Source of the DNA: a virus | DNA: 64,000 bases | Direction: 5' to 3' (one strand) | Virus record (IMG/VR): IMGVR_UViG_3300016665_000824 | Coordinates: 1 to 64,000 of that record | Shown here: piece after piece, positions 1,172-63,696 of the stretch | Layout of the letters: the number at the start of each line of letters is the position of its first letter | Numbering within the stretch: position 1 is the first letter of the stretch | Program-made: the position numbers and the translations under genes | Notes under the pieces: model-generated | What the model saw: the letters and a program-made list of their open reading frames with translations, nothing else | What the model was told of the DNA's origin: nothing | The model's database searches: none

Positions 1172-1216
1172 TTTGTGGCAATATTGACGCAATCTTGCTA
1201 TAATATTGCCACAAAA
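1172..1216. promoter_or_regulatory. perfect 15-bp inverted repeat (TTTTGTGGCAATATT / AATATTGCCACAAAA) with 16-nt spacer containing a TATAAT hexamer; operator-like or terminator hairpin
   Basis: read directly in the intergenic gap between ORFs ending 1169 and starting 1233; arms contain the TTTGTGG/CCACAAA motif seen at other control regions. Confidence 0.5.
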
Positions 1217-5960: not shown

Positions 5961-6166
5961 TCGCCACCATGTCAGATCGCGCCGCCCTCTTGGTTGGCGA
6001 TGTCTCCGACAGAGTCCTAAGTCAACTTCGACTCTACGGACTAGCGCCACAAGTCCAACAGGATTTGTGGGGATATAGACGCGAGTTTGTGGTAATATTG
6101 AACGATTCAGATCGGAAAGCCGCCTTTGCGATCGCCTGCAATAATCTCAAAATCCAAGTCAAATAA
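5954..6166 (+). CDS. hypothetical protein
   Basis: ORF overlapping previous stop by 7 nt. Confidence 0.5.
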   Translation: MVVATMSDRAALLVGDVSDRVLSQLRLYGLAPQVQQDLWGYRREFVVILNDSDRKAAFAIACNNLKIQVK

Positions 6167-9866: not shown

Positions 9867-10324
9867 CTACAAGATATTGCGTTACAAAACAAGTTCAATA
9901 TCCCGATGGCGATCGCGTTGTCGAGATATCTACAGGTACATTCGACTACGCTAATCCCGATTGCTTGAGCGACGGGATTAAGGAGTGCGAGACAGCTACT
10001 GAGGCTGTCGAGTATGCCATTGAGCTAGCACAAAAGTGGCAGGCTGAATGCGGTGAAGAAGTATTCATTGGCAAGGGCTATACAGGTGGCAACACCATGC
10101 CTTTCGATCCTTGGGAGCTTTGCGAAAACACTTATTCTCGCTTCCGATCATGGGCAAGAGAACGCGATGCGGACTTGCTGCGCTGCGATCATTGCGGTGA
10201 GGTCGTGAATGAGAAATATACCCTTCATCACTACCCAGACTTTGTTTTTTGCCGCGAATATTGCGCCGAAGAGTTTTTAGCTCAACAAGAAGAAGATCTA
10301 GAAAAGGAGTTTGAATATGCTTAA
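9863..10324 (+). CDS. hypothetical Cys-rich protein
   Basis: ATG 9863 in ATGA overlap with previous stop (track ORF 9755-10324); C-terminal CDHCG...FCREYC. Confidence 0.55.
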   Translation: MTTRYCVTKQVQYPDGDRVVEISTGTFDYANPDCLSDGIKECETATEAVEYAIELAQKWQAECGEEVFIGKGYTGGNTMPFDPWELCENTYSRFRSWARERDADLLRCDHCGEVVNEKYTLHHYPDFVFCREYCAEEFLAQQEEDLEKEFEYA

Positions 10325-10925
10325 GCAGTTAGAGTTTGTCCCGTTATCTGATTACCACGAGCCTATCGTGGCAAAGATTGAGATTATTCAAGACCAAACG
10401 CCATCTAGTCCCCGCAAATGGGATAACCTCGGCGAGATGGTTATTCGCAGAGCTATGGATGGTCACTTCTGTGGCGATCGCCTAGTCAACGATGAAGAAA
10501 TGAGTGAACTTATTAATCGTTGCCGAGTACAAGAACTTGTGTGGCGACCCATCTACGCATTGATTCACTCAGGAGTATGGCTATCGACCACCGAAAGCTT
10601 CAATGGGTATACCTGCAACTATGACACCTCGTTTGCAGGTGTCATCTATGTCGAGAACGACAAGATGATCGAAGAATACGGGGACTTATCTATTCGTAAT
10701 CGTGGCTTAGCGATCGCCTGCCTTGAATCCGAAGTTAAAACTTATCACCAATACCTCACGGGTGATGTCTATGGCTATCGAATGCTCGACCCCGATGGCG
10801 AGGAGGTTGATTCTTGCTGGGGATTTTATGGTTTGGATGTTAGCGAGAACGGAATGTTGGGCGCGATCGATTCCAAATATCACGATTTATTGAAGCAAGC
10901 TGCGGAGAATATTAAATATGTCTAG
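10311..10925 (+). CDS. hypothetical protein (204 aa)
   Basis: ORF. Confidence 0.6.
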   Translation: MNMLKQLEFVPLSDYHEPIVAKIEIIQDQTPSSPRKWDNLGEMVIRRAMDGHFCGDRLVNDEEMSELINRCRVQELVWRPIYALIHSGVWLSTTESFNGYTCNYDTSFAGVIYVENDKMIEEYGDLSIRNRGLAIACLESEVKTYHQYLTGDVYGYRMLDPDGEEVDSCWGFYGLDVSENGMLGAIDSKYHDLLKQAAENIKYV

Positions 10926-16748: not shown

Positions 16749-16864
16749 ATGAATTGACTTTTGAGCGCGATCGCTGCCATAATACTCCCACAAACTTATG
16801 TTAAATCGAATATTACTGGCAGGCGATCGCCTTAGCCTTGCTTTGAAAAACTTAGGAGAATCTT

Positions 16865-22292: not shown

Positions 22293-22323
22293 GTTTAGTG
22301 ATCGCACCCTCAACCCATCATCT

Positions 22324-22363
22324 AATACGTCACAGATCTAATTAGATCTGTGACGTATTTTTG
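22324..22363 (+). terminator. strong intrinsic terminator: 36-nt perfect palindrome (16-bp stem) followed by a T5 run
   Basis: AATACGTCACAGATCTAATTAGATCTGTGACGTATT + TTTT read directly. Confidence 0.75.
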
Positions 22364-22397
22364 TGGTAGTATTAATTCAAAGAATTTTCAAAAACCT

Positions 22398-34951: not shown

Positions 34952-36403
34952 TTAATAATTCCAGTCAAGGGATTCGTAAACCAGAGTCATCGACTCGATC
35001 AGCTTCTCCGCGCCGACAAAGTATTCCTTCCCAGACGGCGTAGCGCCAATCAGGTAACAGTTTCTCAGTGTCGCGCCAAGCAAGCTAATTGTTCTCACTG
35101 CGGGGGTAGATCCTTTTGACAGGGCGGTGCGAGATGCGTTAGCTAGCGATCGCCATGCAATCACATCACTCGCTTTAACCCCTGACAACCCCAATGTTAC
35201 TGATTGGCGAGCGAGGGCTACCTGTGTTTGCACTCCATTGCGATTAAGGAGGATCTGTGAGTTATCGGCATCGGCAAAAGAGATCGAATCAACCTCATAG
35301 CCATCGAAGAAGTTTGCTGCGCCCGCACCCGTTTGATCGTAAGACCAATATTTGCTGATAAATTCAAGCTGGGTTGATGCTCGTATTTCCCGCCCGCTTA
35401 CGGTTACGGTTTCTGAAGGAGTGACATTAGTAAGAATTGCCGAGGGGATTGTGTAGCCAGCAACAGTTAACGAGATGACTTCAGGATTAAGAGCATCGGC
35501 AACATTTTCGACCTTGTGGATATAGTTGACTGCATATTCTGCGGGTGTGCCAATTACCGAGAAGGATATCCGCCGCTTAAAGGTTGGGACTTCGCGACGA
35601 CCCGAACCTGCTTGGTTAATTACAAATATCTTTGTATCAGCGCCAACATTAATATTCGCGATCGGGTAGCCATCGAAAGTCCCCTGAGAGAATGGGACAT
35701 CATAATTTCGAGTTTCATATTCAAGCACCAGTGCATCACTAATTTTGCCCAGCCCCGTAGTAATCGAAGCGGTCGGTGTTACTGATGTCAGTACTGCATT
35801 ACTTAAAGTAATACCGCCAATAGTAATGTCTTCAGTTAGTGGCGCAAGCAGGTCTGTATTCAGTAAGTTTAAAAATTTCTGATAGTCGGCTGGTGAAGTA
35901 CCTTTCAGGGTAATCGTCACCTTGCGGCGCTTAACTACGGCAGTACGAACTATGCCTGCATCGGCATACTGGACGCTAATCGAATCACCATCACCGAACT
36001 GAACCCCGTCTAACTCGACCGTATAACCTTTAAAGTGGTCGAAGGCTACACCATGCGTCCAAGTATTACTTTCGTAGAGCAGTCTTAAAGTCTCAACTAT
36101 TTGAGCTTCACCTACCTGCAAAATACCCGTTATTTCTGCGGAGACAAGGCGACATCCCGACAAACTGCGTCCACCATAGGAGATACTGTCACGGAGATCA
36201 GATCCTGCTTCTGCTGCGGACTGATAGTAAAGAACGTCGGCATCTGAGACCCCAGTAATGGTTATCCCGATGTTTGGGCGATAAGCCTTGAATTTTTGGA
36301 GCGTAGACCCGTCCTGCTTGGTGAATTCCCTAGACTCCGCCTCGCCAAACTGAATACCATCTGGCGCGATCGCAAATCCATCAAATTGTAAAAGCGAAAT
36401 CAT
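34952..36403 (-). CDS. putative tail structural protein (483 aa)
   Basis: ORF in tail module. Confidence 0.7.
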   Translation of the reverse strand: MISLLQFDGFAIAPDGIQFGEAESREFTKQDGSTLQKFKAYRPNIGITITGVSDADVLYYQSAAEAGSDLRDSISYGGRSLSGCRLVSAEITGILQVGEAQIVETLRLLYESNTWTHGVAFDHFKGYTVELDGVQFGDGDSISVQYADAGIVRTAVVKRRKVTITLKGTSPADYQKFLNLLNTDLLAPLTEDITIGGITLSNAVLTSVTPTASITTGLGKISDALVLEYETRNYDVPFSQGTFDGYPIANINVGADTKIFVINQAGSGRREVPTFKRRISFSVIGTPAEYAVNYIHKVENVADALNPEVISLTVAGYTIPSAILTNVTPSETVTVSGREIRASTQLEFISKYWSYDQTGAGAANFFDGYEVDSISFADADNSQILLNRNGVQTQVALARQSVTLGLSGVKASDVIAWRSLANASRTALSKGSTPAVRTISLLGATLRNCYLIGATPSGKEYFVGAEKLIESMTLVYESLDWNY

Positions 36404-36409
36404 TGGCGC

Positions 36410-36455
36410 ATCAAAAAGGCGATCGCTTTATTTAATGTGCGATCGCCTTTTTGAT
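36410..36455 (-). terminator. 17-bp perfect stem hairpin built from two HIP1 sites (attenuator/terminator candidate)
   Basis: ATCAAAAAGGCGATCGC ... GCGATCGCCTTTTTGAT between the 80-aa and 483-aa genes. Confidence 0.45.
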
Positions 36456-36472
36456 ATTTAATTGTTGCGGAA

Positions 36473-36715
36473 TTAGGAAGCCTTGAGACCCTCCAATACG
36501 ATCTGAGATTCTTCGAGCATCTGACGATCGCCTGTTCGCTGGCAGATATAAAAATAGCTGTCAGCATCATAATCATATAAACGCCGCTTGATCGTATAAG
36601 ACTTATTGGCGTACAAAATCCTTGTTCCTAGTTGGTATTTGGGAATTCCAATCGCGTAGCTTGCACTTTTTGCTGTCATATTGTGTTCGTGGGGATATCG
36701 CCACAAATCTACCAC
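36473..36715 (-). CDS. hypothetical small protein (80 aa; 68 aa if ATG 36679 is used)
   Basis: GTG start lies inside the CCACAAA motif pair; internal ATG may be the real start. Confidence 0.45.
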   Translation of the reverse strand: MVDLWRYPHEHNMTAKSASYAIGIPKYQLGTRILYANKSYTIKRRLYDYDADSYFYICQRTGDRQMLEESQIVLEGLKAS

Positions 36716-36718
36716 AAA
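36701..36718. promoter_or_regulatory. CCACAAA-N4-CCACAAA direct-repeat motif (operator candidate)
   Basis: same architecture at 59935-59952 and, reverse-complemented, at 63679-63696. Confidence 0.5.
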
Positions 36719-36787
36719 AATAGGTTAAAATAATTTATTCGCCGCAGCGTTGTAGCGCTCGGCGTGTGAATCACCAACCATAACTTA

Positions 36788-37321
36788 GTGACTACACATA
36801 TGATACGAGCAATTCGTGCAATCGTCGAGCTTGATGATTTTTCTTTCGATGCGTACCAAATGCCAGACGGTGAAAAGCGCATTGGGTTTTTGGGAGCTTC
36901 CAACGTTTTAGGCTATGCTGACAACTGGTTGGGCAGGTTACATAAAGGCGATTCTCGGCAGCTAAAGGCTATACAGGGTATGGGTTATAGCGGCTTACAA
37001 ACCGAGGTCGAAATCATTCAACGGGGTAGGGAGATTAGCGCCTACGGGACTCGTGCAAATACTATCTCTCTTCGGGATTTTATTAAACTTGTAACTTATG
37101 AGGCTATCAAGAAAACAAATACCCGCGCAATTACTATTCTTGCCTCAATGGCTGAGTTTGGTTTTGAGCAAGTCATTGACATGGCTTTTGCTGGCAACCC
37201 AATGGATGAAATCCTTTCAAAGATCGTTCACTTTAGTCTATGGACTCAAGAAGAATGGGAGCAAGCTTTGGCGGATAACAGGGAAGACTTAGCTAATTTG
37301 CGACTTGGGATGTGGCGATAA
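36788..37321 (+). CDS. opposite-strand moron gene inside tail module; hypothetical protein (177 aa)
   Basis: only + strand gene within the 35-kb minus operon; bracketed by bidirectional terminator and the CCACAAA motif region; start GTG 36788 or ATG 36800. Confidence 0.6.
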   Translation: MTTHMIRAIRAIVELDDFSFDAYQMPDGEKRIGFLGASNVLGYADNWLGRLHKGDSRQLKAIQGMGYSGLQTEVEIIQRGREISAYGTRANTISLRDFIKLVTYEAIKKTNTRAITILASMAEFGFEQVIDMAFAGNPMDEILSKIVHFSLWTQEEWEQALADNREDLANLRLGMWR

Positions 37322-37351
37322 GGTAACAAGGACTTGAGTCCTTGTTACCTT
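37320..37351. terminator. bidirectional terminator hairpin (14-bp stem) between convergent moron and tape-measure genes
   Basis: AAGGTAACAAGGAC ttga GTCCTTGTTACCTT; both stop codons lie in or at the stem. Confidence 0.65.
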
Positions 37352-40300
37352 ACTCCGCTAGTAACACCCGCTACTCGTCTCAAGACATTATTAAGCGTGT
37401 CATTAACAGCCTTCTGGACATCATTGCCCACACCCGCCGCAGAACTAATGTTGCTTTGAGTATTGATAGCGATCGGGGCATTAACCGTAATATTTCCACT
37501 TGTACCCAGAGCCGCACCCGTAGGATTGCCCTGTTGCTGAGGAACAAGATCTTTACCGCCAAGACTACCGAAAGCCTGCGCCAATGCCTCCGCTCTTTGA
37601 AGTTGTCCTTCGTCAAGCAAGGCGATCGGCTTGTCGAGTTTCTTCTGGGCTTCCTCAAATGCCTTGTCGTCGATCTTCAATGTCACGGGGTTCTCGGAGA
37701 TTTGCTTCGACACACGGTTAAATTCCGCTTCCAGTCCTGCGGTTAAATCTTTAACCTTGAGATCTGGGGCAACCAACACCTTGGAGAAGCCTTCATCGAT
37801 TTGCTGAGTTAACTTGTCGAACGAAGACGCGATCGCCTGTTCTGGCTTTGCTTCCTCCGTAGGTTTGCCACCGTACTTAGCGTTAAGCTCCTCAAACGAG
37901 TTGGCTTGAGCAGGATACTTCTTGTTAAGCTCCTCAAAGCTGCCTGCCATGCCCTTGTCGGGATATTTCTTGGCTAACTCCTCAAAGCTAGTAGCGAACG
38001 GTGCGTTATCAGGCTTTGGTTCGGGTGCAGCCGTAAATACTCCGCCCTGCTCAACCTGCCCAAGCAATGCCGAGGTGGGGTTCTTAAACGAAGCACCGCG
38101 AACATTAACAGGTTGGCTTGCCGCAGCCACAGCATTACTTACATCCGTGGTAGTCAATGCTGCTGTACCCGTATTTTGAGTTAAGCGAGCAAGCTGCTCT
38201 CGTTGTAGGCGCTCTTGCAGCGCAGGATCTCTAGTTGCGCCAATAACATCGCCGATCGCCGTATTAGTTTCGCCTTGCTGTTTATTGGCAAGAGCTTGAC
38301 GATCATTCTTGTTGACAATCTCGTTAACCTTGGCTTCGTCGGCAATGAAACCCTTTTCTTGCTGCAATCCACCCAATTCAAGAAAGTTCTTCTCCTGTCC
38401 AAGCTTGGCTTGAGCAAGTTTAAGCTTCGCCTCTTCGGACTGGGGACGTAGTTTAACCTCCAACTCGGCGGCTTTGATAGCAGCATCCTGTGAGGCAATG
38501 TCCACCTTCTTCTTGGCGATCGCGATTTCATTTTCGACCTTCTTGCGTTCAAGCAATAGGTCACGCTTCTGGATTTCCCGCTCCAAGGACTCGGCTTCAA
38601 ACTTTTGCTGTTGCTTGAGGGAATTAAGCTTAAGAACGGCAAGTTTTTCCGCAAGAATCAGCTTTTTCTCTTCGAGTTCGAGATCGGCAAAGTTGCCCTG
38701 ACCACCTGCGGCACGGATGGCAGCTTGTTGGCGATCGTAGATCTTGTTGAGAGCAGCAAACTCTGACTCGCGTAATGCCACTGTAGACTGGGCAAGTTTA
38801 TTTGCCGACTCGGATAGGCGGCTTTGATTCTCAAGCCCCTTTTCTAGTGCGGTGAATAATAGTTTTTGACGTTCAAGCTTGAGGTTTTGCTGCTCAATCG
38901 TGACCGCATACTTTTGTGATTCCAAGACTAGGCGATCGCGCACTGCGGAAACTAATCCTTCAATCGCCGCGAGTTCGGCTTCAGCGAGCTGTTTGGATAG
39001 TTCAGCAACCTTGATTAGATTAGCGTTCTTAGTTTCCTTGCTAACACCAACGCCCTTCTTCTCAAGATCGGCGATCGCCTTCTGCTTTTGTTGTTCGAGT
39101 TGCAGCTCTAAAGTGATACTGCGTTTACGTTCGGCAGTTTCTTGAAGCTTAATTTCAGATTCAAGCTTAATTCCCGACTTGCGGAGTTGAGCTATCTGAG
39201 CAAGACGCTGAGTCTCGCCAACCTTTTCGGCGGCAAGGGTCTCCTTAATCTGTGCATCCAATCCCTTAACAAAGCGCTCGGAACGGGCTTTGGCTATTTT
39301 TGCCTCAGCGTCCTTCCGTTTGTTGTCGGCATCCTCTTCTAATCGCGCTTTCTGGGCGGCGGTAGCCTTAACTAGATCAAGCTCTTTTTTGTTTGCGTCA
39401 GCAATAGAGTTTTTCGCCAAGTTTTGACGTTCGGCATCTGGCTTTGCGATTGAGGAAAGTTGATCCCTCTTTGTCTGCAACGTCCGAAGTTCAGACTCTT
39501 TCTTGGCGATCGCGTCCTGTTCCGCCTTGATCTGTGCGGTGTACTCCGAGGAATTAAAAAATGGCGCGTCTTTTACGGTGTTGAATCGCTGTAATGTCTC
39601 CGCATTCCCAGCTTTCAGACTAGACAAGGCTTTTTCCCCATCTTCAATCTGCTTCGTAATTCCCTCTAGCTGTCCCTGAGTATCCTCTGACAACTTTAAG
39701 GTGCTATCCAAGGTTCCTTTCTGGCTCTGGAGGCTATTAAGTCTTGATTGCAACACAGCAAGCTCGTCCGTTACTTTCTTAACGTCCTCGGCAGCGTTAT
39801 CTCCCGCAACACCCGTACTTATAGACTCTTGGAGAGCCTTCTTCCTTGCCTCTGCATCTTTGATCTGTTGACTGGTATCGTCGATCTTTCCTTGCAAGAC
39901 AGGAGCTTGAGCTTCCCTGACCTGCCGTATCTTTGAAGGATCTCCAGTTGCAGCAGCTAACTGCGCTTCCGCCAACTCGCGATCGCGCTTAATCTGTTGT
40001 TTCTGCTCATTAGCGTTGGTCTCCAAGATCTGCTGTCTTGCTCTTAGAGCCTTTTGATCGGCTTCAGACTGGGCTTGAATCTTCTTCTCCTCTAATTGTC
40101 CAGAGAGGGCGATCGATTCAGACTCAGAGATTCGCCCCGTGGCGAGCAAAGCTTGAATCTGGGAAAGTTGAGCGTCATAAATAGCTATGCGGCGATCCGC
40201 CTCCTTTTTGTACGCGGCAGTAATCGCTTCTTGAGCCTTTATCTGTAAATCGCGATCGGCAGAGACATTCGTAGCTACTTTTTGAAACGCTCCCGCAACT

Positions 40301-43300
40301 TCGTCTGCACGGAGAATCCCTGCATCTTGAAGGGCGTTAGCCGTTTCAAGCAACTCGCCCAACTTCGCCTTAAATAGCGCAGGATCTCCCGCAGACTTGT
40401 TTAAAGCGTCAAGGGCTGCATTATATTTTGAAGTTGCCTGCTCGATCGCATTACCAATACGAGGAAGATCAATAGCCTGAATTTGCAGGTTTACCGACTT
40501 GTAGGATTCTTGAAGTTTTCTAAGGGCTTCAAGTTCTCGATCTCTTTCTGCGTCTAAACCTTCTACAGCTTGAACCTGATTAATGATTGCCTCGATATTG
40601 TTGTTTCTTTCGGCGATCTCCTTCTTCTTATTCTCGATCTGAATATCAAAACGCGCAGCACCATCTTTGTCGCTTAGCGCTTCCGCCTTGGACTTTTCCT
40701 GCTCTAATTTAATTAAATCCTCTTGGAGTTTCTTCTGAGCAGACAGTCCTATTCCTAGATCAACCCGCCGAGAAGCTGACTGATTTAAGACGTTTTTATT
40801 ATCTTGCAATCTTATTTGGACGGCTTTCTCTTCAAGATTTCCTGCGCGATCGCCTAGACCTAACTTGTCGGAAGCGCCAAACGTTACCGTTCTTAGCCCC
40901 TCTCTTGCCGCGTCACCTGTAAGAGCAAAACCTTCTGTAACGCGAGTACCAATATTGTCTCTCTCTTTTTTAACCTTCTCCCTCAACGCGTCTTCGGAGT
41001 TGGTTGGTTTGCTTTGTAATCCCCTCAACTCTTTGAGTTTTGCGAGCTGTTGATCATACAGCTTTAAAGTGGGGTCATCTTGGAGGATGCTCTTGTCTTG
41101 GATTGAGGCAACATATTTTTCGCGTTCTGAGGTTAGGTTTGCTAGCTCAGAAGCGGCATCCTTTCCTTGCGATTTGTTTAGGATCGCAACCCTTGCGTCA
41201 CTATCTTTGAGCGCATCGTTGAGTTTGTCTACATTGGCTGTAGCTGCTTTTGTTTCCTGATCGACGTAGCCAACCAAGGTTGTTATTGCGGCGAAAGCTG
41301 CGCTTAACAATAATGTAGGACCAATTTCTGCGGCGAGGGCGGCGAAGGATTTGCTGATACCTTTGACATTCTCGGAAATAAACGAGGTAGCGCCTACAGC
41401 ACCCTTTTTGAGGTTTGAATAAAGTCCACCGACACTAACGTTCGCGTTTTGAGTGAAATCAGCAAAGCTAGACTTAGCTCGCGAGCCAAAATCTTTGACA
41501 CCAGAAAGAGCATCTTGGAAACCTGTCTTTAACCCAGCACCTAAATTTTTGAGGCTTAAATCGGGGAGAGAAATAGACTTGACTTGATTGACAAACTTAT
41601 CTATAGCGATACGAGAATTAGCCAAAGAAGCGGGAATATTTAGCTCTCTAAAGAACTTATCGAGTCCCAGTCTCGCGTTTGCAAGAGAGGTAGGGACGTT
41701 GATCTGGGAAAATGCTTTTTCAACCCCGTTGCGGAGGTTTACCAGCGAGGCAGGAATGTTGATATTTGCAAAGGCGTTCCGAATGCTAGCTTTAGTATTC
41801 TCAATTTGCGCGGGGAGATTTGCAAAGATACCAGTTTTTTGACTCGAATCCTGACTGAACCTTCCCTTAATGTCAGATATAAAACTACCAATAGAGTCGC
41901 CCAAGGACTTCAAAGAAGTTTTTGTCTTTGTGGCGATCGCTCCAATATCTTCTGCGAACTGTTTTGTGAACGGGACGGGAATTGGATTGGCAATAATCTG
42001 ACTTCGGAGCGACTTGATTCTGTCGGTAGTCTCCTGATAACTTTTAAGAGCCGCCGCACGAGCTTCGGGGGTTAACGACAGATCTGTAGAGTCTTTTTGG
42101 CTCACGATCGCCTGCTGTTTTAGTCCAGAGACCTCTCGTTTAGCGGCGACAACCTGAGTAGGATTTAGAGTCGTTGACTGAACTGGCTTGCCCCCAAGTA
42201 TTTCTCGAACACTATCGTTTAGCTTCTTGATGCGCCCAAAGGTTTCGCCAATACTGGCTCCAGCACCGCTAATTCCCGTGTTAATTGTCTTAAATACATT
42301 GGAGATTGTGCCACCAAACAGCTTGGTAACAGCGATCGCGATTAGCAATCCGCCAACTACTTTTTGAAAAGGATTGGAGTTCTCGCCAAAAGTAAAGAAC
42401 GGCAATATCGTGTCTGCAACCACCTTAATTACTGGTGCTAATACCGACCCTACCGTATCCGCAAACTTACGAATAGCTGCGGTTACATCCTGAATGATTT
42501 TTTGTAGACCTTTGTTCTTCAGGATTAACTGATCGAAGAAGACAAAACCAACAAATGTTCCAGCACCCAACAAGGCTGTTGATACGGCAAAAGACCTTGC
42601 CGCAGCTCCTGCCGCTTTTAATGAATTAGAGAAGATGCTGTTTACTTTCTCGGTATTTGTAGCGACATCGGCAAACTTGCCCAAGCTCTTGGCTGCGTCC
42701 GCAATCAACGGGCTAAACGAGCCAAATAGTTGGGACTTACCAACAATGCCTGAGAAAGCTGTTAAGGCGATCGGCGCTGCCTTCGTAAATCCTTGCAGTG
42801 CGGTTCCTAGCGCAGGAAATGCTTGAGTAAGTCCAATCAGTTTTACCCCAAAGCCACCTAGTGTTGGCAAAGCGGCAGTTATAACTCCCGCGAATGGCGA
42901 GAACGCACCGAGAACTTTGCCCAACTCTTTTTGGACTAAGCCAGCAGCACCAGGGATCTTGTTTAGATTCTCCGCCAACAACAGGAATCCAGCAGACCCT
43001 CGACCGACAACCGAACTTAAATTAGCAAAAGTGTTGACAACCCCGTTAGTACGCTTGTCAAGCAGGAAGAGAACTTCTCCCAAACCTGGTACAAGATTAA
43101 ACATCAACGAGAAGCCTTTGTTTAATGCCCCGATCGCGCCCGAAAGAACTTTTGCGCCGACGGAGATGCCGATCCAAATCCCTCCAAGAGGACCTACAAC
43201 ACCTGCAATTTGTTCAAACACATTAATAGCTGGCTGAACAACAGCAAGAGTAAGGCTCATCGCATCGGAAAAAGCCTTTACTGCGCCAGCGAGAGACTTG

Positions 43301-45780
43301 AATAGGTATTCTGGAACCTGCCCAAAGATCTGGAAGAATGGCCCCGCGAGACTTTTTAGGGTCGCAATCACGTTCTTGAATACGTCAAACAGTATTCCTG
43401 CGAGACTCCCTACTTGAGCAGCGATCGCGTCTTTATTCTTTGAGAAATACTGGTAAAACCCGTCAAGTTCCGCTACTAAAGGTGCGAGGAATTTCTCCCC
43501 AGCGAGTCTGCCGATCTCATCAACTAGCTCTTGAATATTGCTAACAATCCCACCCACGGACTGAGCAGCTAGCTTGTTTCCAGACTTAAATGCTTCTAAT
43601 CGACCTAAAAGCTCTTTGACGAAGGTTCCTTGAGACTTCCACTTAGCCACCATCTCATTGTTGAGGTTAAGCGATTTGGCAAGAGCTGAGTTTTGGTCAA
43701 TAGTTCCCGAAGTTATACTAACAACCTCTTGACGGGCTTGATATAAAGGTATGCCAAGCGTTCCGAGTGCGGCGGCGAACGAGGTTGTAATATTAGCAGC
43801 GTCATTCAAGGACGCGCCAATGTTGCTTGCCTGCCCAGCAACGATCTGAAAAACCCCGACAAGATCTTTACTGGTTACGCCGACCAGCTCTAACGAGTCT
43901 TTACGAATTTTATCGATCGCCCCTTCAACCGCAGGGCCAACCGCCTTGATCGCTTGAGTTGGATCTGATACGCGATCGCCATTAACTACGATTCTATTGG
44001 TTGCCGCTAAGCTCGCCTGAGTAGAGAGTAGTTGCTCTTGGAGCCTGATGTTTTGCCCAATCAACAGATCGAAAGGGCCGTTTTGTACAAATCCTTGGAG
44101 TGCCTGCAATCCCAATCCCAAGAAAGCAAGTCTCTGAGATACTTCAAAGATCGCGTTGGTTGCCTTGCCAGCACCTTCGCTAATTAGATTGAATACTTCT
44201 AGTGGTTCCGTCGCCCCCGCCACTGGAGCAACCACTGCGGCGGCAATATCTACAGGTTCTTGCAGCTTCGGGGCTATCTCTTGAGTCTTTTGAAACCCCT
44301 TAACGATAACATCATCAACACTATCGATGACAGTACCGACTTCGGCAAGGATTGTTGATCTCAGTCCATCAACAAAATTCTTACCTGCGATCGCGCCAGT
44401 ATCTTTTAAAAGCGAACTAAATGTTCCGCCAAAAAACTCGTCAATCTTGGTTGCAAGTTTTTGCAGTGAGCCATCCCCGCTTCCGATAGAATCAATCGCC
44501 GCGCCCAACCCTCCGTCAATAGCATCGACAGCTTTTAGGGCTAAATTCCTGAGAGGCGCAAGGATGCTAGTATCTTCTACGCTAAACAAGCTATTGAGAG
44601 CCTGTCCAACGCCTCCCTTTTGAGTCTCTATTAAAGGGCGGAGGATGGCAAAAGCGGATCTTAAATCCTCTGGAATTGCTTTTTCTAGTCCATTAAATAA
44701 CTGTCCAGACAACGCATTTCCAAAATCTTGCAACTCATTAGAGGCAACAATCGACCCCAAATTTGCCACCCCGATCTTGTTGGCAATCAGTTTTGCTAGT
44801 GGTGGTAGTGGCAACTTATCTACAAGCTGAGGGATTCGCCCCGCTAGGCGGTTGATCAGCTCAGATACAGAGCCGCCTAACTGTTCGTCAAGAATTTTAA
44901 ATTGATCGGTCGCCTCAGATCTGCTGCCGACGATTGCCCTGCCGACCGATCCTCCTAAAGCGCTAGATAAGCGCCCTACAACTCTTTGTCCGTCCTCAAC
45001 GTTTGGCGCGATTGCGTTAACGGCAAAAGCTTTAGCAGCACCCGATACCGACCCACCAGCCAACTGCTTCGACACTTCCGACAGCAATCCAGTTTTTGCC
45101 GCAGTCCGAAATGAGTTGGCGACAATTGAGGTTAAATCCGCCCCGAAAGCTTGGTTAACAATACCTTTTAAAGCGTCGGGGAGTCCTCCCCCAACAACGC
45201 CCGAAATGAGTGAGTCGGCGATCGCGTTATCTAGCGTTCCAGTAAAAGCCTCAACTCCCACTCCAAGCTTGCGCTGAATTTCTTGATTTAGCTTTGAAGC
45301 CCTAACATTTGCTTCTAACGCTTTACCGAAACTGTTTGCAGAATCGCTAAGTATCTGCGTAATTCTCTTGCCGTTATCCGAAAATATTGCAGACTGAGCT
45401 TGCTCTGCCGACTGCTTAGATAAGAATCCTCCTCCGACATCTTTTCCTGCAGAGGTAATCCCCTTGATTACCTTTGAGAGCGGAGCTAGTTTTGAAACTG
45501 CACTGTCGGCGACATTCGAGATCTGTTCTAAAAATATTTTGCCCGACTGCGTATCTAGTACATCTCGAACCGACTGAATTGCGTCTCTCAGCCCTCCAAA
45601 CGTGCCAATCGCGGTTGCCCCTACCGTGCTGATCGTTCCGCCAAGGGCTTGTACAGATCCCTTTGTTACGTCCGCAACAACACCAACACTTTTTAGACCA
45701 GCAGCTATCTCCGAAACTTGTTTGCTTGCTTGATCTTTCGCCTGTATTAAGATCTCAACAATATTGGTTTGCGGAGCCAT
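37345..45780 (-). CDS. tape measure protein (2811 aa)
   Basis: giant ORF with Gly/Ala-rich hydrophobic N-terminal half and ~1000-aa coiled-coil (Q/E/K/A-rich) half, upstream of baseplate/fibre genes. Confidence 0.75.
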   Translation of the reverse strand: MAPQTNIVEILIQAKDQASKQVSEIAAGLKSVGVVADVTKGSVQALGGTISTVGATAIGTFGGLRDAIQSVRDVLDTQSGKIFLEQISNVADSAVSKLAPLSKVIKGITSAGKDVGGGFLSKQSAEQAQSAIFSDNGKRITQILSDSANSFGKALEANVRASKLNQEIQRKLGVGVEAFTGTLDNAIADSLISGVVGGGLPDALKGIVNQAFGADLTSIVANSFRTAAKTGLLSEVSKQLAGGSVSGAAKAFAVNAIAPNVEDGQRVVGRLSSALGGSVGRAIVGSRSEATDQFKILDEQLGGSVSELINRLAGRIPQLVDKLPLPPLAKLIANKIGVANLGSIVASNELQDFGNALSGQLFNGLEKAIPEDLRSAFAILRPLIETQKGGVGQALNSLFSVEDTSILAPLRNLALKAVDAIDGGLGAAIDSIGSGDGSLQKLATKIDEFFGGTFSSLLKDTGAIAGKNFVDGLRSTILAEVGTVIDSVDDVIVKGFQKTQEIAPKLQEPVDIAAAVVAPVAGATEPLEVFNLISEGAGKATNAIFEVSQRLAFLGLGLQALQGFVQNGPFDLLIGQNIRLQEQLLSTQASLAATNRIVVNGDRVSDPTQAIKAVGPAVEGAIDKIRKDSLELVGVTSKDLVGVFQIVAGQASNIGASLNDAANITTSFAAALGTLGIPLYQARQEVVSITSGTIDQNSALAKSLNLNNEMVAKWKSQGTFVKELLGRLEAFKSGNKLAAQSVGGIVSNIQELVDEIGRLAGEKFLAPLVAELDGFYQYFSKNKDAIAAQVGSLAGILFDVFKNVIATLKSLAGPFFQIFGQVPEYLFKSLAGAVKAFSDAMSLTLAVVQPAINVFEQIAGVVGPLGGIWIGISVGAKVLSGAIGALNKGFSLMFNLVPGLGEVLFLLDKRTNGVVNTFANLSSVVGRGSAGFLLLAENLNKIPGAAGLVQKELGKVLGAFSPFAGVITAALPTLGGFGVKLIGLTQAFPALGTALQGFTKAAPIALTAFSGIVGKSQLFGSFSPLIADAAKSLGKFADVATNTEKVNSIFSNSLKAAGAAARSFAVSTALLGAGTFVGFVFFDQLILKNKGLQKIIQDVTAAIRKFADTVGSVLAPVIKVVADTILPFFTFGENSNPFQKVVGGLLIAIAVTKLFGGTISNVFKTINTGISGAGASIGETFGRIKKLNDSVREILGGKPVQSTTLNPTQVVAAKREVSGLKQQAIVSQKDSTDLSLTPEARAAALKSYQETTDRIKSLRSQIIANPIPVPFTKQFAEDIGAIATKTKTSLKSLGDSIGSFISDIKGRFSQDSSQKTGIFANLPAQIENTKASIRNAFANINIPASLVNLRNGVEKAFSQINVPTSLANARLGLDKFFRELNIPASLANSRIAIDKFVNQVKSISLPDLSLKNLGAGLKTGFQDALSGVKDFGSRAKSSFADFTQNANVSVGGLYSNLKKGAVGATSFISENVKGISKSFAALAAEIGPTLLLSAAFAAITTLVGYVDQETKAATANVDKLNDALKDSDARVAILNKSQGKDAASELANLTSEREKYVASIQDKSILQDDPTLKLYDQQLAKLKELRGLQSKPTNSEDALREKVKKERDNIGTRVTEGFALTGDAAREGLRTVTFGASDKLGLGDRAGNLEEKAVQIRLQDNKNVLNQSASRRVDLGIGLSAQKKLQEDLIKLEQEKSKAEALSDKDGAARFDIQIENKKKEIAERNNNIEAIINQVQAVEGLDAERDRELEALRKLQESYKSVNLQIQAIDLPRIGNAIEQATSKYNAALDALNKSAGDPALFKAKLGELLETANALQDAGILRADEVAGAFQKVATNVSADRDLQIKAQEAITAAYKKEADRRIAIYDAQLSQIQALLATGRISESESIALSGQLEEKKIQAQSEADQKALRARQQILETNANEQKQQIKRDRELAEAQLAAATGDPSKIRQVREAQAPVLQGKIDDTSQQIKDAEARKKALQESISTGVAGDNAAEDVKKVTDELAVLQSRLNSLQSQKGTLDSTLKLSEDTQGQLEGITKQIEDGEKALSSLKAGNAETLQRFNTVKDAPFFNSSEYTAQIKAEQDAIAKKESELRTLQTKRDQLSSIAKPDAERQNLAKNSIADANKKELDLVKATAAQKARLEEDADNKRKDAEAKIAKARSERFVKGLDAQIKETLAAEKVGETQRLAQIAQLRKSGIKLESEIKLQETAERKRSITLELQLEQQKQKAIADLEKKGVGVSKETKNANLIKVAELSKQLAEAELAAIEGLVSAVRDRLVLESQKYAVTIEQQNLKLERQKLLFTALEKGLENQSRLSESANKLAQSTVALRESEFAALNKIYDRQQAAIRAAGGQGNFADLELEEKKLILAEKLAVLKLNSLKQQQKFEAESLEREIQKRDLLLERKKVENEIAIAKKKVDIASQDAAIKAAELEVKLRPQSEEAKLKLAQAKLGQEKNFLELGGLQQEKGFIADEAKVNEIVNKNDRQALANKQQGETNTAIGDVIGATRDPALQERLQREQLARLTQNTGTAALTTTDVSNAVAAASQPVNVRGASFKNPTSALLGQVEQGGVFTAAPEPKPDNAPFATSFEELAKKYPDKGMAGSFEELNKKYPAQANSFEELNAKYGGKPTEEAKPEQAIASSFDKLTQQIDEGFSKVLVAPDLKVKDLTAGLEAEFNRVSKQISENPVTLKIDDKAFEEAQKKLDKPIALLDEGQLQRAEALAQAFGSLGGKDLVPQQQGNPTGAALGTSGNITVNAPIAINTQSNISSAAGVGNDVQKAVNDTLNNVLRRVAGVTSGVR
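37840..37995 (-). repeat. three tandem ~45-nt repeats encoding SFEEL-x-KKYP inside the tape measure gene
   Basis: GCTCCTCAAA recurs three times on + strand; protein repeats SFEELAKKYP / SFEELNKKYP / SFEELNAKYG. Confidence 0.6.
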
Positions 45781-59934: not shown

Positions 59935-59952
59935 CCACAAATCCACCACAAA
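59935..59952. promoter_or_regulatory. CCACAAA-N4-CCACAAA motif in divergent control region
   Basis: CCACAAATCCACCACAAA between the virion operon start (59827) and + strand regulator (59991). Confidence 0.5.
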
Positions 59953-59990: not shown

Positions 59991-60554
59991 TTGAATATGG
60001 CAGTAAAAAGTAAAGTCAAGCTCGGCGCGTATATCGGGCGAAGGCTGGAGCAGGAACGTACCGATGCCGATTACGGTCAGCAAGAAGTCATTAATGAGAT
60101 CCACAGAATAACGTCATCCCCAGAAGTTATTGCTGCGCTAGAGATATCTGTCGCCGCAAACCTAACCAAGTTTCGAGAGTTTCGAGGCAAACGCCAGAAA
60201 GATTTAGCCGCAGATCTAAACAACTTGCGCGATACCTTGCATGGCGTAGGTATAGATACTGAAGTGTCTGGCGATGTGTCTTGGATGTCTAAGGTTGAGA
60301 ATAGCGATCGCATCATGCAGGCGGTCGAACTACGACTCTTTAGCCTTGCTTTGGGTGTTCCGATGGAGGCATTTTTCCCTAATGAGTTAAACGTACTAGC
60401 AGAAAGTAATGACCCGTTCGCCCCTTACCGATATCTGGGACGCAGTATCGAGGGTATTCAAAAGTATCGACATGTCAGCGATCGCAACAAAATTGCGATC
60501 GTTTATTGTTCAGAAGGGTTGTCTTTACCTGATGGTGTGGGGAAATATCTATGA
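59991..60554 (+). CDS. putative HTH (XRE-like) DNA-binding regulator (187 aa)
   Basis: divergent from virion operon; segment LTKFREFRGKRQKDLAADLNNLRDTL resembles an XRE-type helix-turn-helix; start TTG 59991 or ATG 59997. Confidence 0.5.
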   Translation: MNMAVKSKVKLGAYIGRRLEQERTDADYGQQEVINEIHRITSSPEVIAALEISVAANLTKFREFRGKRQKDLAADLNNLRDTLHGVGIDTEVSGDVSWMSKVENSDRIMQAVELRLFSLALGVPMEAFFPNELNVLAESNDPFAPYRYLGRSIEGIQKYRHVSDRNKIAIVYCSEGLSLPDGVGKYL

Positions 60555-62869: not shown

Positions 62870-63595
62870 TTAATCAAAGAATTTTCTAACCGCCGCTTCT
62901 ACATCCTTGTTTGGCATCGGGTAGCACCAAATCGGCATCATCCGACCATTGCAAATCCTTTCTTCTTGTTTGCCAAGAGCCTCGCAAGTAGCTTTGACAA
63001 ATTTTCCTAATGTGGTGCGGTTTTTAGCTGTTACGGGCAAACTCAAAGATTCAGCAATTTCTACGGCTCCCATCCACTTTGTCTCCGAGGCTGGAGCGAT
63101 CGCCTTGATAACAGCCATTGCGTCGTTGATCGCAACATCTACAAGCATTTGACATAAGCGAGGGTCGGAATCAGCAAGCATATCCTTGATCTCAAAGACT
63201 GACTTCGCTGTTTCGAGTGCTATTACACGAGAGGGCAATGCGGGAACAGGAGTGGGGGTAGTAGGCACTGATTGTAACAATGCCTTCGCCTTAGAGAAGG
63301 CTTCAACCAGATCGAGCTTGCTCTGAACAACGGCTACCGTGTTTCGGCTCAGGGTCATTAAAGCGGTCGCTTGGTCTTCGTTGAGTAGCGCAAATTTAGG
63401 AGGGTTCCCTGTCGCCTTTTCGGGGACTCCGATTTTAAATCGGATACCCGCGAACCTTGCTTCAATCATGTCTTGGTACTTCTTGATGTTCCGCATAAAG
63501 CTCTCGTGATCAATCCCAAGTCGCTCGGCAATCAGTCGAGAGTCAACAAGCAATTCGCCATCTTCATTGATGATTGGTACAATACTTTCGGACAT
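62870..63595 (-). CDS. phage regulatory protein, Rha/ORF6N-like (241 aa)
   Basis: N-terminus ...LLVDSRLIAERLGIDHESFMRNIKKYQDMIE... matches the Rha-type DNA-binding pattern. Confidence 0.6.
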   Translation of the reverse strand: MSESIVPIINEDGELLVDSRLIAERLGIDHESFMRNIKKYQDMIEARFAGIRFKIGVPEKATGNPPKFALLNEDQATALMTLSRNTVAVVQSKLDLVEAFSKAKALLQSVPTTPTPVPALPSRVIALETAKSVFEIKDMLADSDPRLCQMLVDVAINDAMAVIKAIAPASETKWMGAVEIAESLSLPVTAKNRTTLGKFVKATCEALGKQEERICNGRMMPIWCYPMPNKDVEAAVRKFFD

Positions 63596-63678: not shown

Positions 63679-63696
63679 CTTGTGGCGATTTTGTGG
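63679..63696. promoter_or_regulatory. TTGTGG-N4-TTTGTGG motif (reverse-complement form of the CCACAAA pair) upstream of the final partial gene
   Basis: CTTGTGGCGATTTTGTGG in the gap between the Rha-like gene and ORF starting 63727. Confidence 0.45.

What the first reader, a model, noticed from the sequence alone, without database searches (positions are those of the whole stretch)
36716..37352. Opposite-strand moron gene inserted between tape measure and distal tail genes
The 177-aa gene at 36788-37321 is the only + strand gene inside the ~35-kb minus-strand operon. It ends in a bidirectional terminator shared with the tape-measure gene (37320-37351), and its upstream region carries the CCACAAA-N4-CCACAAA motif found at other control regions. 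An independently transcribed gene here has the layout of a lysogenic-conversion or superinfection-exclusion moron.
Basis: partly seen in the sequence, partly recalled or inferred. Interest (0 to 1): 0.6.

Follow-up and report, generated by a model that had tools for sequence, protein, structure and literature searches.

The report
Insertable Bro-N-like gene cassette in cyanophage tail operon
A small gene pointing against the flow of a cyanophage's tail-gene operon is a real, self-contained insert with its own promoter and end hairpin. It is absent from some sister phages and most likely encodes a DNA-binding protein of the viral Bro/KilA type, not a membrane "exclusion" factor, so it is an ordinary kind of phage accessory gene from an unnamed family.

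Summary
A 173-aa gene (ATG 36800-37321; the longest ORF starts at GTG 36788) is the only non-nested + strand gene in the 35-kb minus-strand head/tail block. It ends in a 14-bp hairpin (37320-37351) that spans both convergent stop codons. It is preceded by an exact CCACAAA-N4-CCACAAA repeat (36701-36718) and a TAAAAT -10-like box.

Sister phages decide the "insert" question:
- L021 joins the tape-measure gene directly to the 483-aa tail gene (empty site).
- L012 carries an IS605 element there instead.
- L002/L003 carry the same gene.
- L006-L009 carry an allele with the same promoter, leader and first 28 residues but a different C-terminus.

Copies elsewhere, including PaV-LD ORF068R, keep the layout of -10 box, leader hairpin, gene and (mostly) a terminal hairpin. 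In that structural sense it is a moron.

The functional guess is not supported. The protein has no membrane segment, and the window's large ORFs gave no lysogeny-gene hit. The predicted fold matches Bro-N, APSES and winged-helix DNA-binding domains. Family members are fused to T5orf172/GIY-YIG-type and other effector domains.

Most likely it is an independently, probably early, expressed DNA-binding accessory regulator. It is a new member of a known kind, of modest interest.

The parts
36479..37344 (.). Accessory island inserted between the tape-measure gene stop and the conserved hairpin that precedes the 483-aa tail gene. It holds the target cassette and one small minus-strand gene.
   Evidence: The island is absent from L021, where the tape-measure gene stops at 7917 and the 483-aa gene starts at 8001. 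In L012 it is replaced by a WDGH-domain gene plus IS605 TnpB/TnpA. The island boundaries come from my reading of the sequences; the L012 breakpoints come from the blastn comparison.
36701..36718 (+). Tandem direct repeat CCACAAA-TCTA-CCACAAA (11-bp period). It is a promoter-associated or operator motif.
   Evidence: There is an exact second copy at 59935 and a near copy at 63696 on the - strand, well above chance. The repeat is conserved upstream of the homologue in L002/3 and L006-9, and it is the only such site in those 20-kb loci.
36726..36731 (+). TAAAAT, a -10-like hexamer 18 nt after the first repeat.
   Evidence: The same spacing precedes TATAAT at the 63696(-) site and TTCAAT at the 59935 site. 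TAAAAT is conserved in L002 and L006-9. That it works as a promoter is an inference.
36733..36771 (+). Leader stem-loop with core CGCCG(C)AGCG-TTGTAG-CGCTCGGCG, at or near the predicted 5' end of the mRNA.
   Evidence: Folds are. The leader is 92-100% identical in L002 and L006. Phage-borne homologues in L004, L010 and PaV-LD have a hairpin of different sequence at the equivalent place.
36800..37321 (+). Target gene, 173 aa. Residues ~1-130 form a Bro-N/KilA-N/APSES-like domain and residues ~131-173 form an acidic helical tail.
37320..37351 (.). Hairpin with a 14-bp stem at the convergent junction with the tape-measure gene. It is a putative two-way terminator or 3'-end stabiliser.
   Evidence: One search gives the fold. 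Hairpins of other sequence occupy the same position in L002, L006-9 and L004.
36473..36679 (-). Small 68-aa gene sharing the island, transcribed divergently from the target.
   Evidence: It is 70% identical to a 72-aa gene in L006-9 and is truncated in L012.
36414..36456 (.). Conserved hairpin AAAAAGGCGATCGC-N12-GCGATCGCCTTTTT just upstream of the 483-aa tail gene. It is the only element present at the empty site.
59935..59952 (+). Second exact copy of the tandem repeat, upstream of the + gene 59997-60554.
63679..63696 (-). Third tandem repeat (1 mismatch), followed after 18 nt by TATAAT, upstream of the Rha-like regulator gene 62870-63595 (-).

Best explanation
The gene is a self-contained accessory expression cassette (promoter, 5' stem-loop leader, ORF, terminal hairpin). 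It lies in a variable island inserted after the tape-measure gene of a freshwater cyanophage lineage.

Its product is a soluble protein. The N-terminal ~130 residues adopt a Bro-N/KilA-N/APSES-like DNA-binding fold, and the C-terminal ~45 residues form an acidic helical tail, presumably for partner binding or oligomerisation.

The predicted promoter carries the phage-specific CCACAAA tandem repeat. That repeat is shared with a Rha-like regulator gene and with the gene that diverges from the head operon. It points against the late operon. The gene is therefore most likely expressed independently of, and probably earlier than, the tail genes. Late read-through from the tape-measure gene would then run antisense to it.

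The most likely activity is sequence-specific DNA binding that modulates transcription or interferes with DNA of the host or of competing phages. That would resemble antirepressor, Bro or Rha-type proteins, or a domesticated homing-endonuclease DNA-binding module.

Shown: the insert status, the cassette anatomy and its conservation, and the fold resemblance. Inferred: promoter activity, timing, DNA binding and the target of binding.
For: Insert status:
- L021 is an empty site and L012 carries a replacement.
- The same slot and orientation are kept in L002/3 and L006-9.

Cassette:
- Window 36694-36870 is 85-100% identical to L002 and L006, while the flanks are 40-75% identical.
- Codons 1-15 show almost no synonymous change.
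- The order -10 box, leader hairpin, ATG recurs in L004, L010 and PaV-LD. A hairpin follows the stop codon in L002, L006-9 and L004.

Promoter class:
- The three tandem-repeat sites all sit in divergent intergenic regions. Each has a -10-like box 18 nt after the first repeat.
- One of them precedes a gene that matches the Phage_pRha family.

Protein:
- The profile search found 275 cluster representatives, with the conserved part at residues ~1-130.
- In the Foldseek search of viral models, nearly all named hits are Bro or Bro-N proteins.
- Some family members are fused to T5orf172/MUG113 (3 of 56) or to ApeA-HEPN (1 of 56).
- The allele in the same slot in L006-9 carries a C-terminal domain with an E..D..ExK motif. 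Elsewhere that domain is fused to MarR-type winged-helix domains.
- Bro-N and KilA-N are described as DNA-binding modules that co-occur with T5orf172/GIY-YIG domains, and CapR is a domesticated example that acts as a repressor (PMC8096241).
Against: - No sequence model of Bro-N, KilA-N, Rha or ANT matches the protein or any of 56 family members. Profile comparison with the window's Rha-like protein is null.
- The protein is acidic (pI 5.3; N-domain 6.6), which is unusual for a DNA binder.
- The terminal hairpin lacks a U-tract.
- The -35 position holds the repeat rather than a sigma-70 hexamer, and no transcript data exist.
- The strong conservation at the 5' end could instead reflect recent recombination, or an overlapping minus-strand promoter (a TCGACG-17-TATCAT match at 36828-36800).
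Confidence: 0.6

Rival explanations
1. It is a relic or domesticated derivative of a free-standing, homing-endonuclease-like selfish gene. In this reading the Bro-N-like domain is the DNA-recognition module, sister alleles keep a nuclease domain, and this allele has lost or replaced it. It would persist either as a selfish passenger or as a repurposed repressor, as with CapR.
For: - There is presence/absence polymorphism between two conserved genes, and the gene has its own promoter.
- The allele P0017 sits in the identical slot. Its C-terminal domain is modelled with high confidence (pLDDT above 95), has alpha-beta-beta-beta-alpha-beta topology and conserved E, D and ExK residues.
- Family members are fused to T5orf172/MUG113.
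- Solitary chromosomal copies occur in Nostoc genome bins, and one has an in-frame stop.
- PMC8096241 gives a precedent for domestication.
Against: - The target has no nuclease motif.
- Its C-terminal 45 residues are conserved along their full length across homologues of 58-84% identity, including invariant N160 and R161. That argues for a functional C-terminus rather than a decayed one.
- Foldseek against the PDB gave no significant match for the P0017 model, so even that domain's nuclease identity rests on motif reading.
- Sequence identity peaks over the gene's own 5' end, not over the flanking genes as homing co-conversion tracts would predict.
Confidence: 0.2
2. One reading: a lysogenic-conversion or superinfection-exclusion moron, expressed from a prophage to change the host or to block incoming phages.
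For: It has the moron layout of own promoter, terminal hairpin, opposite strand and presence/absence among relatives. Foldseek also lists some 'repressor domain' and antirepressor-type viral proteins among the fold matches, so a role in immunity or competition between phages is conceivable.
Against: - It has no transmembrane or signal segment.
- No PADLOC defence model matches it.
- No integrase or other lysogeny-module hit appears among the 56 large ORFs of the window.
- The one homologue found in the phage database lies in Planktothrix phage PaV-LD, co-oriented with head genes. As far as I know that phage was described as lytic.
- The genome-bin copy whose neighbours were examined (L015) lies among housekeeping genes, not in a prophage.
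Confidence: 0.1
3. It is a divergently encoded dedicated regulator of the distal tail genes. It would bind the shared intergenic region (CCACAAA repeats and palindromic leader) to control the minus-strand genes downstream of the tape-measure hairpin.
For: - It shows the classic divergent regulator-target geometry.
- The 120-bp intergenic region and the first codons are extremely conserved.
- A strong hairpin lies after the tape-measure gene.
- A minus-strand promoter-like match lies inside the conserved first codons.
Against: - Phages with an empty site (L021) or an IS605 replacement (L012) evidently express the same tail genes without it.
- Homologues sit in non-tail contexts.
- The promoter-like match is not above chance: 2 were found against 6.3 expected.
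Confidence: 0.08
4. It is a structural or assembly protein of the tail, for example a chaperone.
For: Only its position between tail genes.
Against: It is on the opposite strand, absent from L021 and L012, found in replication or nucleotide-metabolism and chromosomal contexts, and has a DNA-binding-type fold.
Confidence: 0.02

Closest known systems
Phage morons (autonomous promoter-gene-terminator units inserted in late operons of lambdoid phages such as HK97/HK022; recalled from the literature, not tested here)
   Same: A single gene with its own promoter-like element and terminal hairpin sits between two late genes, is absent at the same junction in a sister phage, and recurs in other genomic contexts.
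   Different: - Expression from a prophage is unknown, and no lysogeny genes were seen in the window.
- It is anti-oriented to the operon, whereas many classic morons are co-oriented.
- Composition is not clearly distinct (GC 0.42-0.45 against 0.45-0.50).
- The slot is occupied in most relatives found, by two alternative alleles.
Bro-N / KilA-N / APSES DNA-binding domain proteins (baculovirus BRO, phage KilA, antirepressor-type proteins)
   Same: It shares the predicted fold. It shows the same modular behaviour, with an N-terminal module joined to varied C-termini including T5orf172/MUG113. It is a phage accessory gene.
   Different: No Pfam or NCBIfam model for these domains matches it. The C-terminal tail is unrelated to ANT, KilA-C or other named partner domains. 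The protein is acidic.
CapR of the Vibrio satellite PLE and the ICP1 T5orf172 homing-endonuclease family (PMC8096241)
   Same: A DNA-binding module related to those of homing-endonuclease-like phage genes exists as a stand-alone small protein. Relatives carry nuclease-type domains.
   Different: No sequence relationship was shown. DNA binding, repression and the target site are untested here. The nuclease-like partner in the sister allele has an E-D-ExK motif, not a GIY-YIG/T5orf172 domain.
PeSL (promoter-early stem-loop) cassettes of T4-like phages (PMC2839356, PMC4122927)
   Same: A conserved short promoter-plus-stem-loop sequence marks the boundary of a variable region where unrelated coding sequence is swapped. 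Here it is the same promoter, leader and first 28 residues joined to two different gene bodies.
   Different: There is one copy at this island rather than a family of repeats dispersed through hyperplastic regions. The conserved block extends into the coding sequence. No recombination intermediates are known.
Planktothrix phage PaV-LD ORF068R / PHROG 32599 (function unknown)
   Same: It is a true sequence homologue (36% identity over 130 residues, E 8e-18; PHROG E 5e-22). It has the same upstream order of -10 box, hairpin and ATG.
   Different: In PaV-LD the gene is co-oriented with head and neck genes, and its upstream region lacks the CCACAAA repeats.

Membership tests
Moron (autonomous insert in a phage late operon) | Absent from the same junction in otherwise syntenic relatives | tested here: met
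   In L021 the tape-measure gene stop and the 483-aa gene start are 83 bp apart, with only the conserved hairpin between them. L012 lacks the gene.
Moron (autonomous insert in a phage late operon) | Own promoter immediately upstream | tested here: inconclusive
   The conserved tandem repeat plus TAAAAT at fixed spacing is shared with two other gene starts. However, the sigma-70 scan found no + strand promoter here, and no transcript data exist.
Moron (autonomous insert in a phage late operon) | Own terminator immediately downstream | tested here: inconclusive
   There is a strong hairpin (-29 kcal/mol, z -8.3) whose position is conserved in relatives. It has no U-tract in the window copy. L004 has a canonical hairpin followed by a T-run.
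Moron (autonomous insert in a phage late operon) | Expressed from the repressed prophage or independently of late genes | not testable with these tools
   This needs transcript mapping.
Bro-N / KilA-N DNA-binding domain superfamily | Match to the family's sequence models (Pfam Bro-N, KilA-N, P22_AR_N, Phage_pRha) | tested here: not met
   There are no Pfam hits for the target at E up to 0.1, and none of these families appears among 56 diverse members at E up to 0.01. NCBIfam gives no hit.
Bro-N / KilA-N DNA-binding domain superfamily | The fold | tested here: met
Bro-N / KilA-N DNA-binding domain superfamily | Modular N-terminal domain fused to T5orf172/GIY-YIG-type and other effector domains | tested here: met
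   MUG113/T5orf172 occurs in 3 of 56 members and ApeA-HEPN in 1. A domain with an E-D-ExK motif is present in P0016 and P0017.
Bro-N / KilA-N DNA-binding domain superfamily | Binds DNA | not testable with these tools
   This needs EMSA, DAP-seq or similar.
Superinfection-exclusion / lysogenic-conversion proteins | Membrane or envelope location, or a recognisable toxin or modification domain | tested here: not met
   The maximum 19-residue hydropathy is 1.12 and GRAVY is -0.21. No domain of that kind was found.
Superinfection-exclusion / lysogenic-conversion proteins | Carried by a temperate phage (integrase or repressor module) | tested here: inconclusive
   No integration or excision family was hit among 56 ORFs of at least 100 aa in the 64-kb window. 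The contig is 134 kb, and the rest was not examined.
Free-standing homing endonuclease gene | Nuclease catalytic domain | tested here: not met
   The target has no nuclease domain. The sister allele P0017 has an E..D..ExK motif domain, but a Foldseek search of the PDB found no significant match for it.
Free-standing homing endonuclease gene | Sporadic presence between conserved genes | tested here: met
PeSL-type mobile regulatory cassette | Conserved promoter plus stem-loop at the boundary of swapped, unrelated sequence | tested here: met
   Identity with L006 is 85-100% over 36694-36870 and falls to 25-50% in the rest of the gene. The hairpin is shown.
PeSL-type mobile regulatory cassette | Multiple dispersed copies in one genome | tested here: not met
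   The leader is single-copy in the window. Only the 18-20 nt repeat motif recurs.

The most novel reading that the evidence does not exclude
The invariant block of promoter, leader and first 28 residues is a recombination and regulatory "socket". Through it, this cyanophage lineage would swap different C-terminal effectors (a helical tail here, an E-D-ExK nuclease-like domain in sister phages) onto one Bro-N-like DNA-recognition head. The result would be an early-expressed DNA-targeting weapon or silencer aimed at co-infecting relatives or host elements. That would make it a previously unnamed family of homing-endonuclease-derived regulators in cyanophages.
Probability: 0.12. Interest if true: 0.55.

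Novelty: new member of a known kind. Interest (0 to 1): 0.3.

Why it matters
The result gives a structure-based first annotation, as a Bro-N/KilA-N-like DNA binder, to an unannotated family. That family has about 275 cluster representatives, corresponds to PHROG 32599 and includes PaV-LD ORF068R, and it occurs in freshwater cyanophages and cyanobacteria.

It documents a clean set of states at a defined hot spot after the tape-measure gene: empty site, occupied site and alternative allele.

It also points to a phage-specific control motif (CCACAAA tandem repeats) that links this gene to Rha-like and other putative regulatory genes. That motif is useful for annotating cyanophage genomes and for choosing candidates in studies of cyanophage gene regulation or competition between phages.

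It does not change any general picture of phage biology.

Tried and rejected
- **Family libraries.** Pfam, NCBIfam and PADLOC scans of the target gave no hit.
- **PDB by sequence.** The family profile and P0017 gave nothing meaningful.
- **Rha comparison.** Profile-profile comparison with the window's Rha-like protein was null, probability 0.9%.
- **Rfam.** A scan of 36300-37500 gave only sub-threshold chance hits on the 36410-36474 hairpin.
- **Phage database by DNA.** Megablast of 30-50 kb of the window found no match.
- **Nuclease domain of P0017.** Foldseek of the P0017 model against the PDB gave no significant match, so the nuclease call stays a motif-level inference.
- **Base composition.** The island has only a slight GC dip, which is not diagnostic.
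- **HIP1 gap.** The 1.4-kb HIP1-free stretch over the island is not unusual, because gaps of 1.2-2 kb are common in the late region.
- **Paralogues.** tblastn found none in the window.
- **tRNA genes.** None were found that could serve as an integration target.
- **Minus-strand promoter.** I looked by eye in the intergenic region for a good sigma-70 promoter serving the small gene and found none. The only scan hit (36828-36800) is within chance expectation.
- **Literature.** A search for a description of the CpGV Orf22 N-terminal domain found nothing usable.
Full report
**What is at the coordinates**

The + strand ORF 36788-37321 is real. Its likely start is ATG 36800, which gives 173 aa. The identical database protein P0001 is 173 aa, and its close homologues begin MIRAIR.

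From 24943 to 59827 every other + strand ORF of at least 100 aa is nested inside a larger minus-strand ORF. Apart from this 0.94-kb interval, the gaps between the listed minus-strand ORFs are under 100 bp (coordinates). It is therefore the only + strand gene of the block.

The block is a head-to-tail module:
- a DUF2213/prohead protease-like gene, a cement protein and a major capsid protein at 56.5-59.8 kb;
- tail genes downstream, with PHROG matches.

GCGATCGC (HIP1) occurs 135 times against 1.2 expected. HIP1 is a signature of cyanobacterial genomes (from my own knowledge), so the host is a cyanobacterium.

**The hairpin**

AAGGTAACAAGGAC-TTGA-GTCCTTGTTACCTT occupies exactly 37320-37351. It folds at -29.4 kcal/mol on the + strand and -27.5 on the - strand, with z-scores of -8.3 and -9.0. 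It spans the stop codons of both convergent genes.

It has no T-run on either side, so the consensus terminator scan does not report it. Relatives nevertheless have a hairpin of quite different sequence directly after the homologue's stop:
- a 22-bp perfect palindrome in L006-9;
- an A/T-flanked stem in L002/3;
- a canonical GC stem followed by TTTTTT in L004.

The structure is conserved by position. That is what a transcript-end element predicts, although termination itself is inferred.

**The motif and the promoter**

CCACAAA-N4-CCACAAA is exact at 36701-36718 and at 59935-59952. A one-mismatch copy lies at 63696-63679 on the - strand. In total there are 6 matches at up to 2 mismatches against 0.5 expected. 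Single CCACAAA is three-fold over-represented, and 14 of the 21 copies lie outside the listed genes, which cover 81% of the window.

All three tandem sites lie in divergent intergenic regions. Each is followed, 18 nt after the first repeat, by a -10-like hexamer:
- TAAAAT before the target;
- TATAAT before the gene at 62870-63595 (-);
- TTCAAT before the gene at 59997-60554.

The second of these genes matches Pfam Phage_pRha (E 3e-11). The target therefore appears to share a promoter or operator class with other putative regulatory genes, not with the late genes that surround it. In the 20-kb tail loci of six relatives, the tandem motif occurs only upstream of the target's homologue. Which factor reads the motif is unknown.

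**A conserved 5' block**

Against L002 (protein 78% identical) and L006 (protein about 37% identical), window 36694-36870 is 85-100% identical. The leader at 36734-36794 is 92-100% identical, while the flanks are 40-75% identical. Codons 1-15 show almost no synonymous change. Over codons 1-28, 23% of the conserved-residue codons differ synonymously, against 42% in the rest of the gene.

The leader contains a stable stem-loop at 36733-36771. More distant phage-borne homologues (L004, L010 and PaV-LD) have no CCACAAA repeats. They keep the same order of -10-like box, a hairpin of different sequence and about 30 nt of related leader before the ATG. The gene thus travels with its own expression signals.

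I searched with the neighbouring 483-aa tail protein rather than with the target, so the sample is not biased towards loci that contain the gene.
- **L021** (79% identical tail protein, 92.7-kb contig) has the tape-measure stop at 7917 and the tail-gene ATG at 8001. Only a conserved hairpin lies between them, homologous to window 36414-36456. This is an empty site.
- **L012/L020** (96% identical) loses homology to the window right after the tape-measure stop and regains it inside the small gene at about 36577. In between it carries a WDGH-domain gene and an IS200/IS605 TnpA/TnpB pair.
- **L002/L003** carry the target (78% identity) in the same slot and orientation, plus a WDGH gene.
- **L006-L009** carry, in the same slot and orientation, the 226-aa protein P0017. 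L007 and L008 also have an ANT-domain gene in the island.

P0017 has an identical promoter, leader and first 28 residues, a diverged N-domain and a different C-terminal domain.

The window's island is about 36479-37344. It comprises the target cassette and a 68-aa minus-strand gene (36473-36679) that is itself conserved in L006-9. This is a variable accessory island, not part of the structural core. Homologues also lie:
- beside a TnpB gene in L004;
- among thymidylate synthase and dCMP deaminase genes in L010;
- among head and neck genes, co-oriented, in Planktothrix phage PaV-LD as ORF068R;
- as solitary copies in Nostoc, Chroococcales and Hormoscilla genome bins. The L015 copy has an in-frame stop and lies among urease, cobalamin and ABC-transporter genes.

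**What the protein is**

No Pfam, NCBIfam or PADLOC model matches it. PHROG 32599, of unknown function, matches at 5e-22. An exhaustive profile search finds 275 cluster representatives. The conserved part is residues ~1-130, and it occurs in several architectures.

From established knowledge (Iyer, Koonin and Aravind 2002), KilA-N is related to the APSES DNA-binding domain. Bro-N and KilA-N are shuffled N-terminal DNA-binding modules of viral proteins, often joined to T5orf172. PMC8096241 restates this and shows a domesticated member, CapR, acting as a repressor.

The family here behaves the same way. Three of 56 members carry MUG113/T5orf172, and one is fused to an ApeA HEPN protein. P0016 and P0017 carry a C-terminal domain with conserved E, GRIDLLT and IEVK motifs and alpha-beta-beta-beta-alpha-beta topology at pLDDT above 95. 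In other cyanobacterial proteins that domain follows MarR-type winged-helix domains. I read it as a PD-(D/E)xK-type nuclease, but Foldseek against the PDB gave no significant match, so this stays an inference.

The target itself lacks any such domain. Its last ~45 residues are acidic, helical and conserved, including invariant N160 and R161. It has no hydrophobic segment.

**How it most likely works**

- Shown: it is an insert with cassette anatomy, and its product resembles Bro-N/KilA-N-type DNA binders.
- Inferred: it is transcribed from its own promoter at about 36738, against the direction of the late operon, and ends at the convergent hairpin.
- Inferred: because its control motif is shared with a Rha-like gene and with the gene that diverges from the head operon, it probably belongs to an early or regulatory class. 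Late transcription from the tape-measure gene, if it passes the hairpin, would be antisense to it.
- Inferred: the protein most likely binds DNA and modulates transcription, or interferes with competing DNA.

A homing-endonuclease-derived origin is a serious rival, given the nuclease-type relatives in the same slot. A role as the dedicated regulator of the distal tail genes is unlikely, because empty-site phages manage without it.

Nothing supports a membrane-level exclusion factor or a conversion factor. There is no membrane segment. No integrase, excisionase or other lysogeny hit appears among the 56 ORFs of at least 100 aa in the window. The rest of the 134-kb contig was not examined. An intracellular role in immunity or competition between phages is not excluded.

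**Verdict**

The specific functional guess is not. The object is an ordinary class of phage accessory gene: a Bro-N/KilA-N-like module in a variable island, from a family that lacks a name. Its strongly conserved regulatory 5' block and its alternative alleles are mildly interesting. Interest is 0.3, and I class it as a new member of a known kind.

Noticed in passing
window 36414-36456; L021 7950-7992: Hairpin AAAAAGGCGATCGC-N12-GCGATCGCCTTTTT has A and T tracts on both sides. It ends a few bases before the ATG of the 483-aa tail gene. It is conserved in the empty-site phage L021, where it is the only element between the tape-measure gene and the tail gene. A terminator-like structure inside the late operon suggests attenuation, processing or antitermination. 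Parts of it are repeated three times inside the L006 island.
   Followed up: partly
window 36800-36828 (- strand): A sigma-70-like match, TCGACG-17-TATCAT, points leftwards and lies inside the first codons of the target. Those codons show almost no synonymous change between phages. It could be an overlapping divergent promoter for the small minus-strand gene, but the scan as a whole is not above chance.
   Followed up: partly
window 1172-1215; 6064-6092 (-); 16774-16794; 22320-22366 (-): Single CCACAAA sites are usually preceded by AATAYT (consensus about AATAYTNCCACAAA). At 1172-1215 two copies form an inverted pair. At 16788 a good TTGACT-18-CATAAT promoter ends 4 nt before the motif. At about 22366 (-) the motif is followed at once by a perfect 16-bp hairpin. 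The motif may be an operator or initiator element rather than a -35 substitute.
   Followed up: partly
window 62870-63595 (-) and 59997-60554 (+): A Rha-like regulator (Pfam Phage_pRha, E 3e-11) and an unannotated 185-aa protein are the other two genes preceded by the tandem CCACAAA repeat. The PHROG scan of the window's large ORFs also returns anti-repressor, Ant and transcriptional-regulator families, which I did not assign to particular ORFs.
   Followed up: partly
L012 4169-5748 (IMG/VR UViG_3300005805_000129); L004 11202-12485: An IS200/IS605 pair (TnpB on the opposite strand and a Y1 TnpA) occupies the island of a 96%-identical sister phage and truncates the small 68-aa gene. Another homologue of the target lies two genes from a TnpB gene in L004. 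TnpB elements seem to frequent the same hot spots.
   Followed up: partly
L006-L009, gene at 10001-10681 (P0017); P0166-P0184: A compact cyanobacterial domain (E..RDRL..QLGG..EV.TPVGRIDLLT..E.IEVK..DWK.ALGQVLAY..FYP.H.KR.HLFG) has no Pfam hit for P0017. It is fused either to the Bro-N-like head or to MarR/ArsR/LexA-type winged-helix domains. One copy lies on a 7.8-Mb contig of a Nostocales genome. The model is very confident (pLDDT above 95) and the motif is PD-(D/E)xK-like, but no significant structural match was found.
   Followed up: partly
L015 10001-10510 (Nostoc sp. genome bin, NZ_JBALBZ010000027.1): A chromosomal homologue of the target carries an in-frame stop at codon 134. It sits among urease accessory, cobalamin and ABC-transporter genes. 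It is a solitary and possibly decaying copy outside any obvious prophage.
   Followed up: partly
window 37345-45780 (-): The ORF taken as the tape-measure gene encodes 2811 aa. Relatives have 2543-2840 aa, which is very long for a tape-measure protein and implies an unusually long tail or a multi-domain protein. I did not run a domain search on it.
   Followed up: no
window, whole: HIP1 (GCGATCGC) occurs 135 times in 64 kb against 1.2 expected. No tRNA genes were found. Most of the 56 large ORFs have no Pfam or PHROG match, so the phage lineage is essentially undescribed, and megablast finds nothing in the phage database.
   Followed up: no
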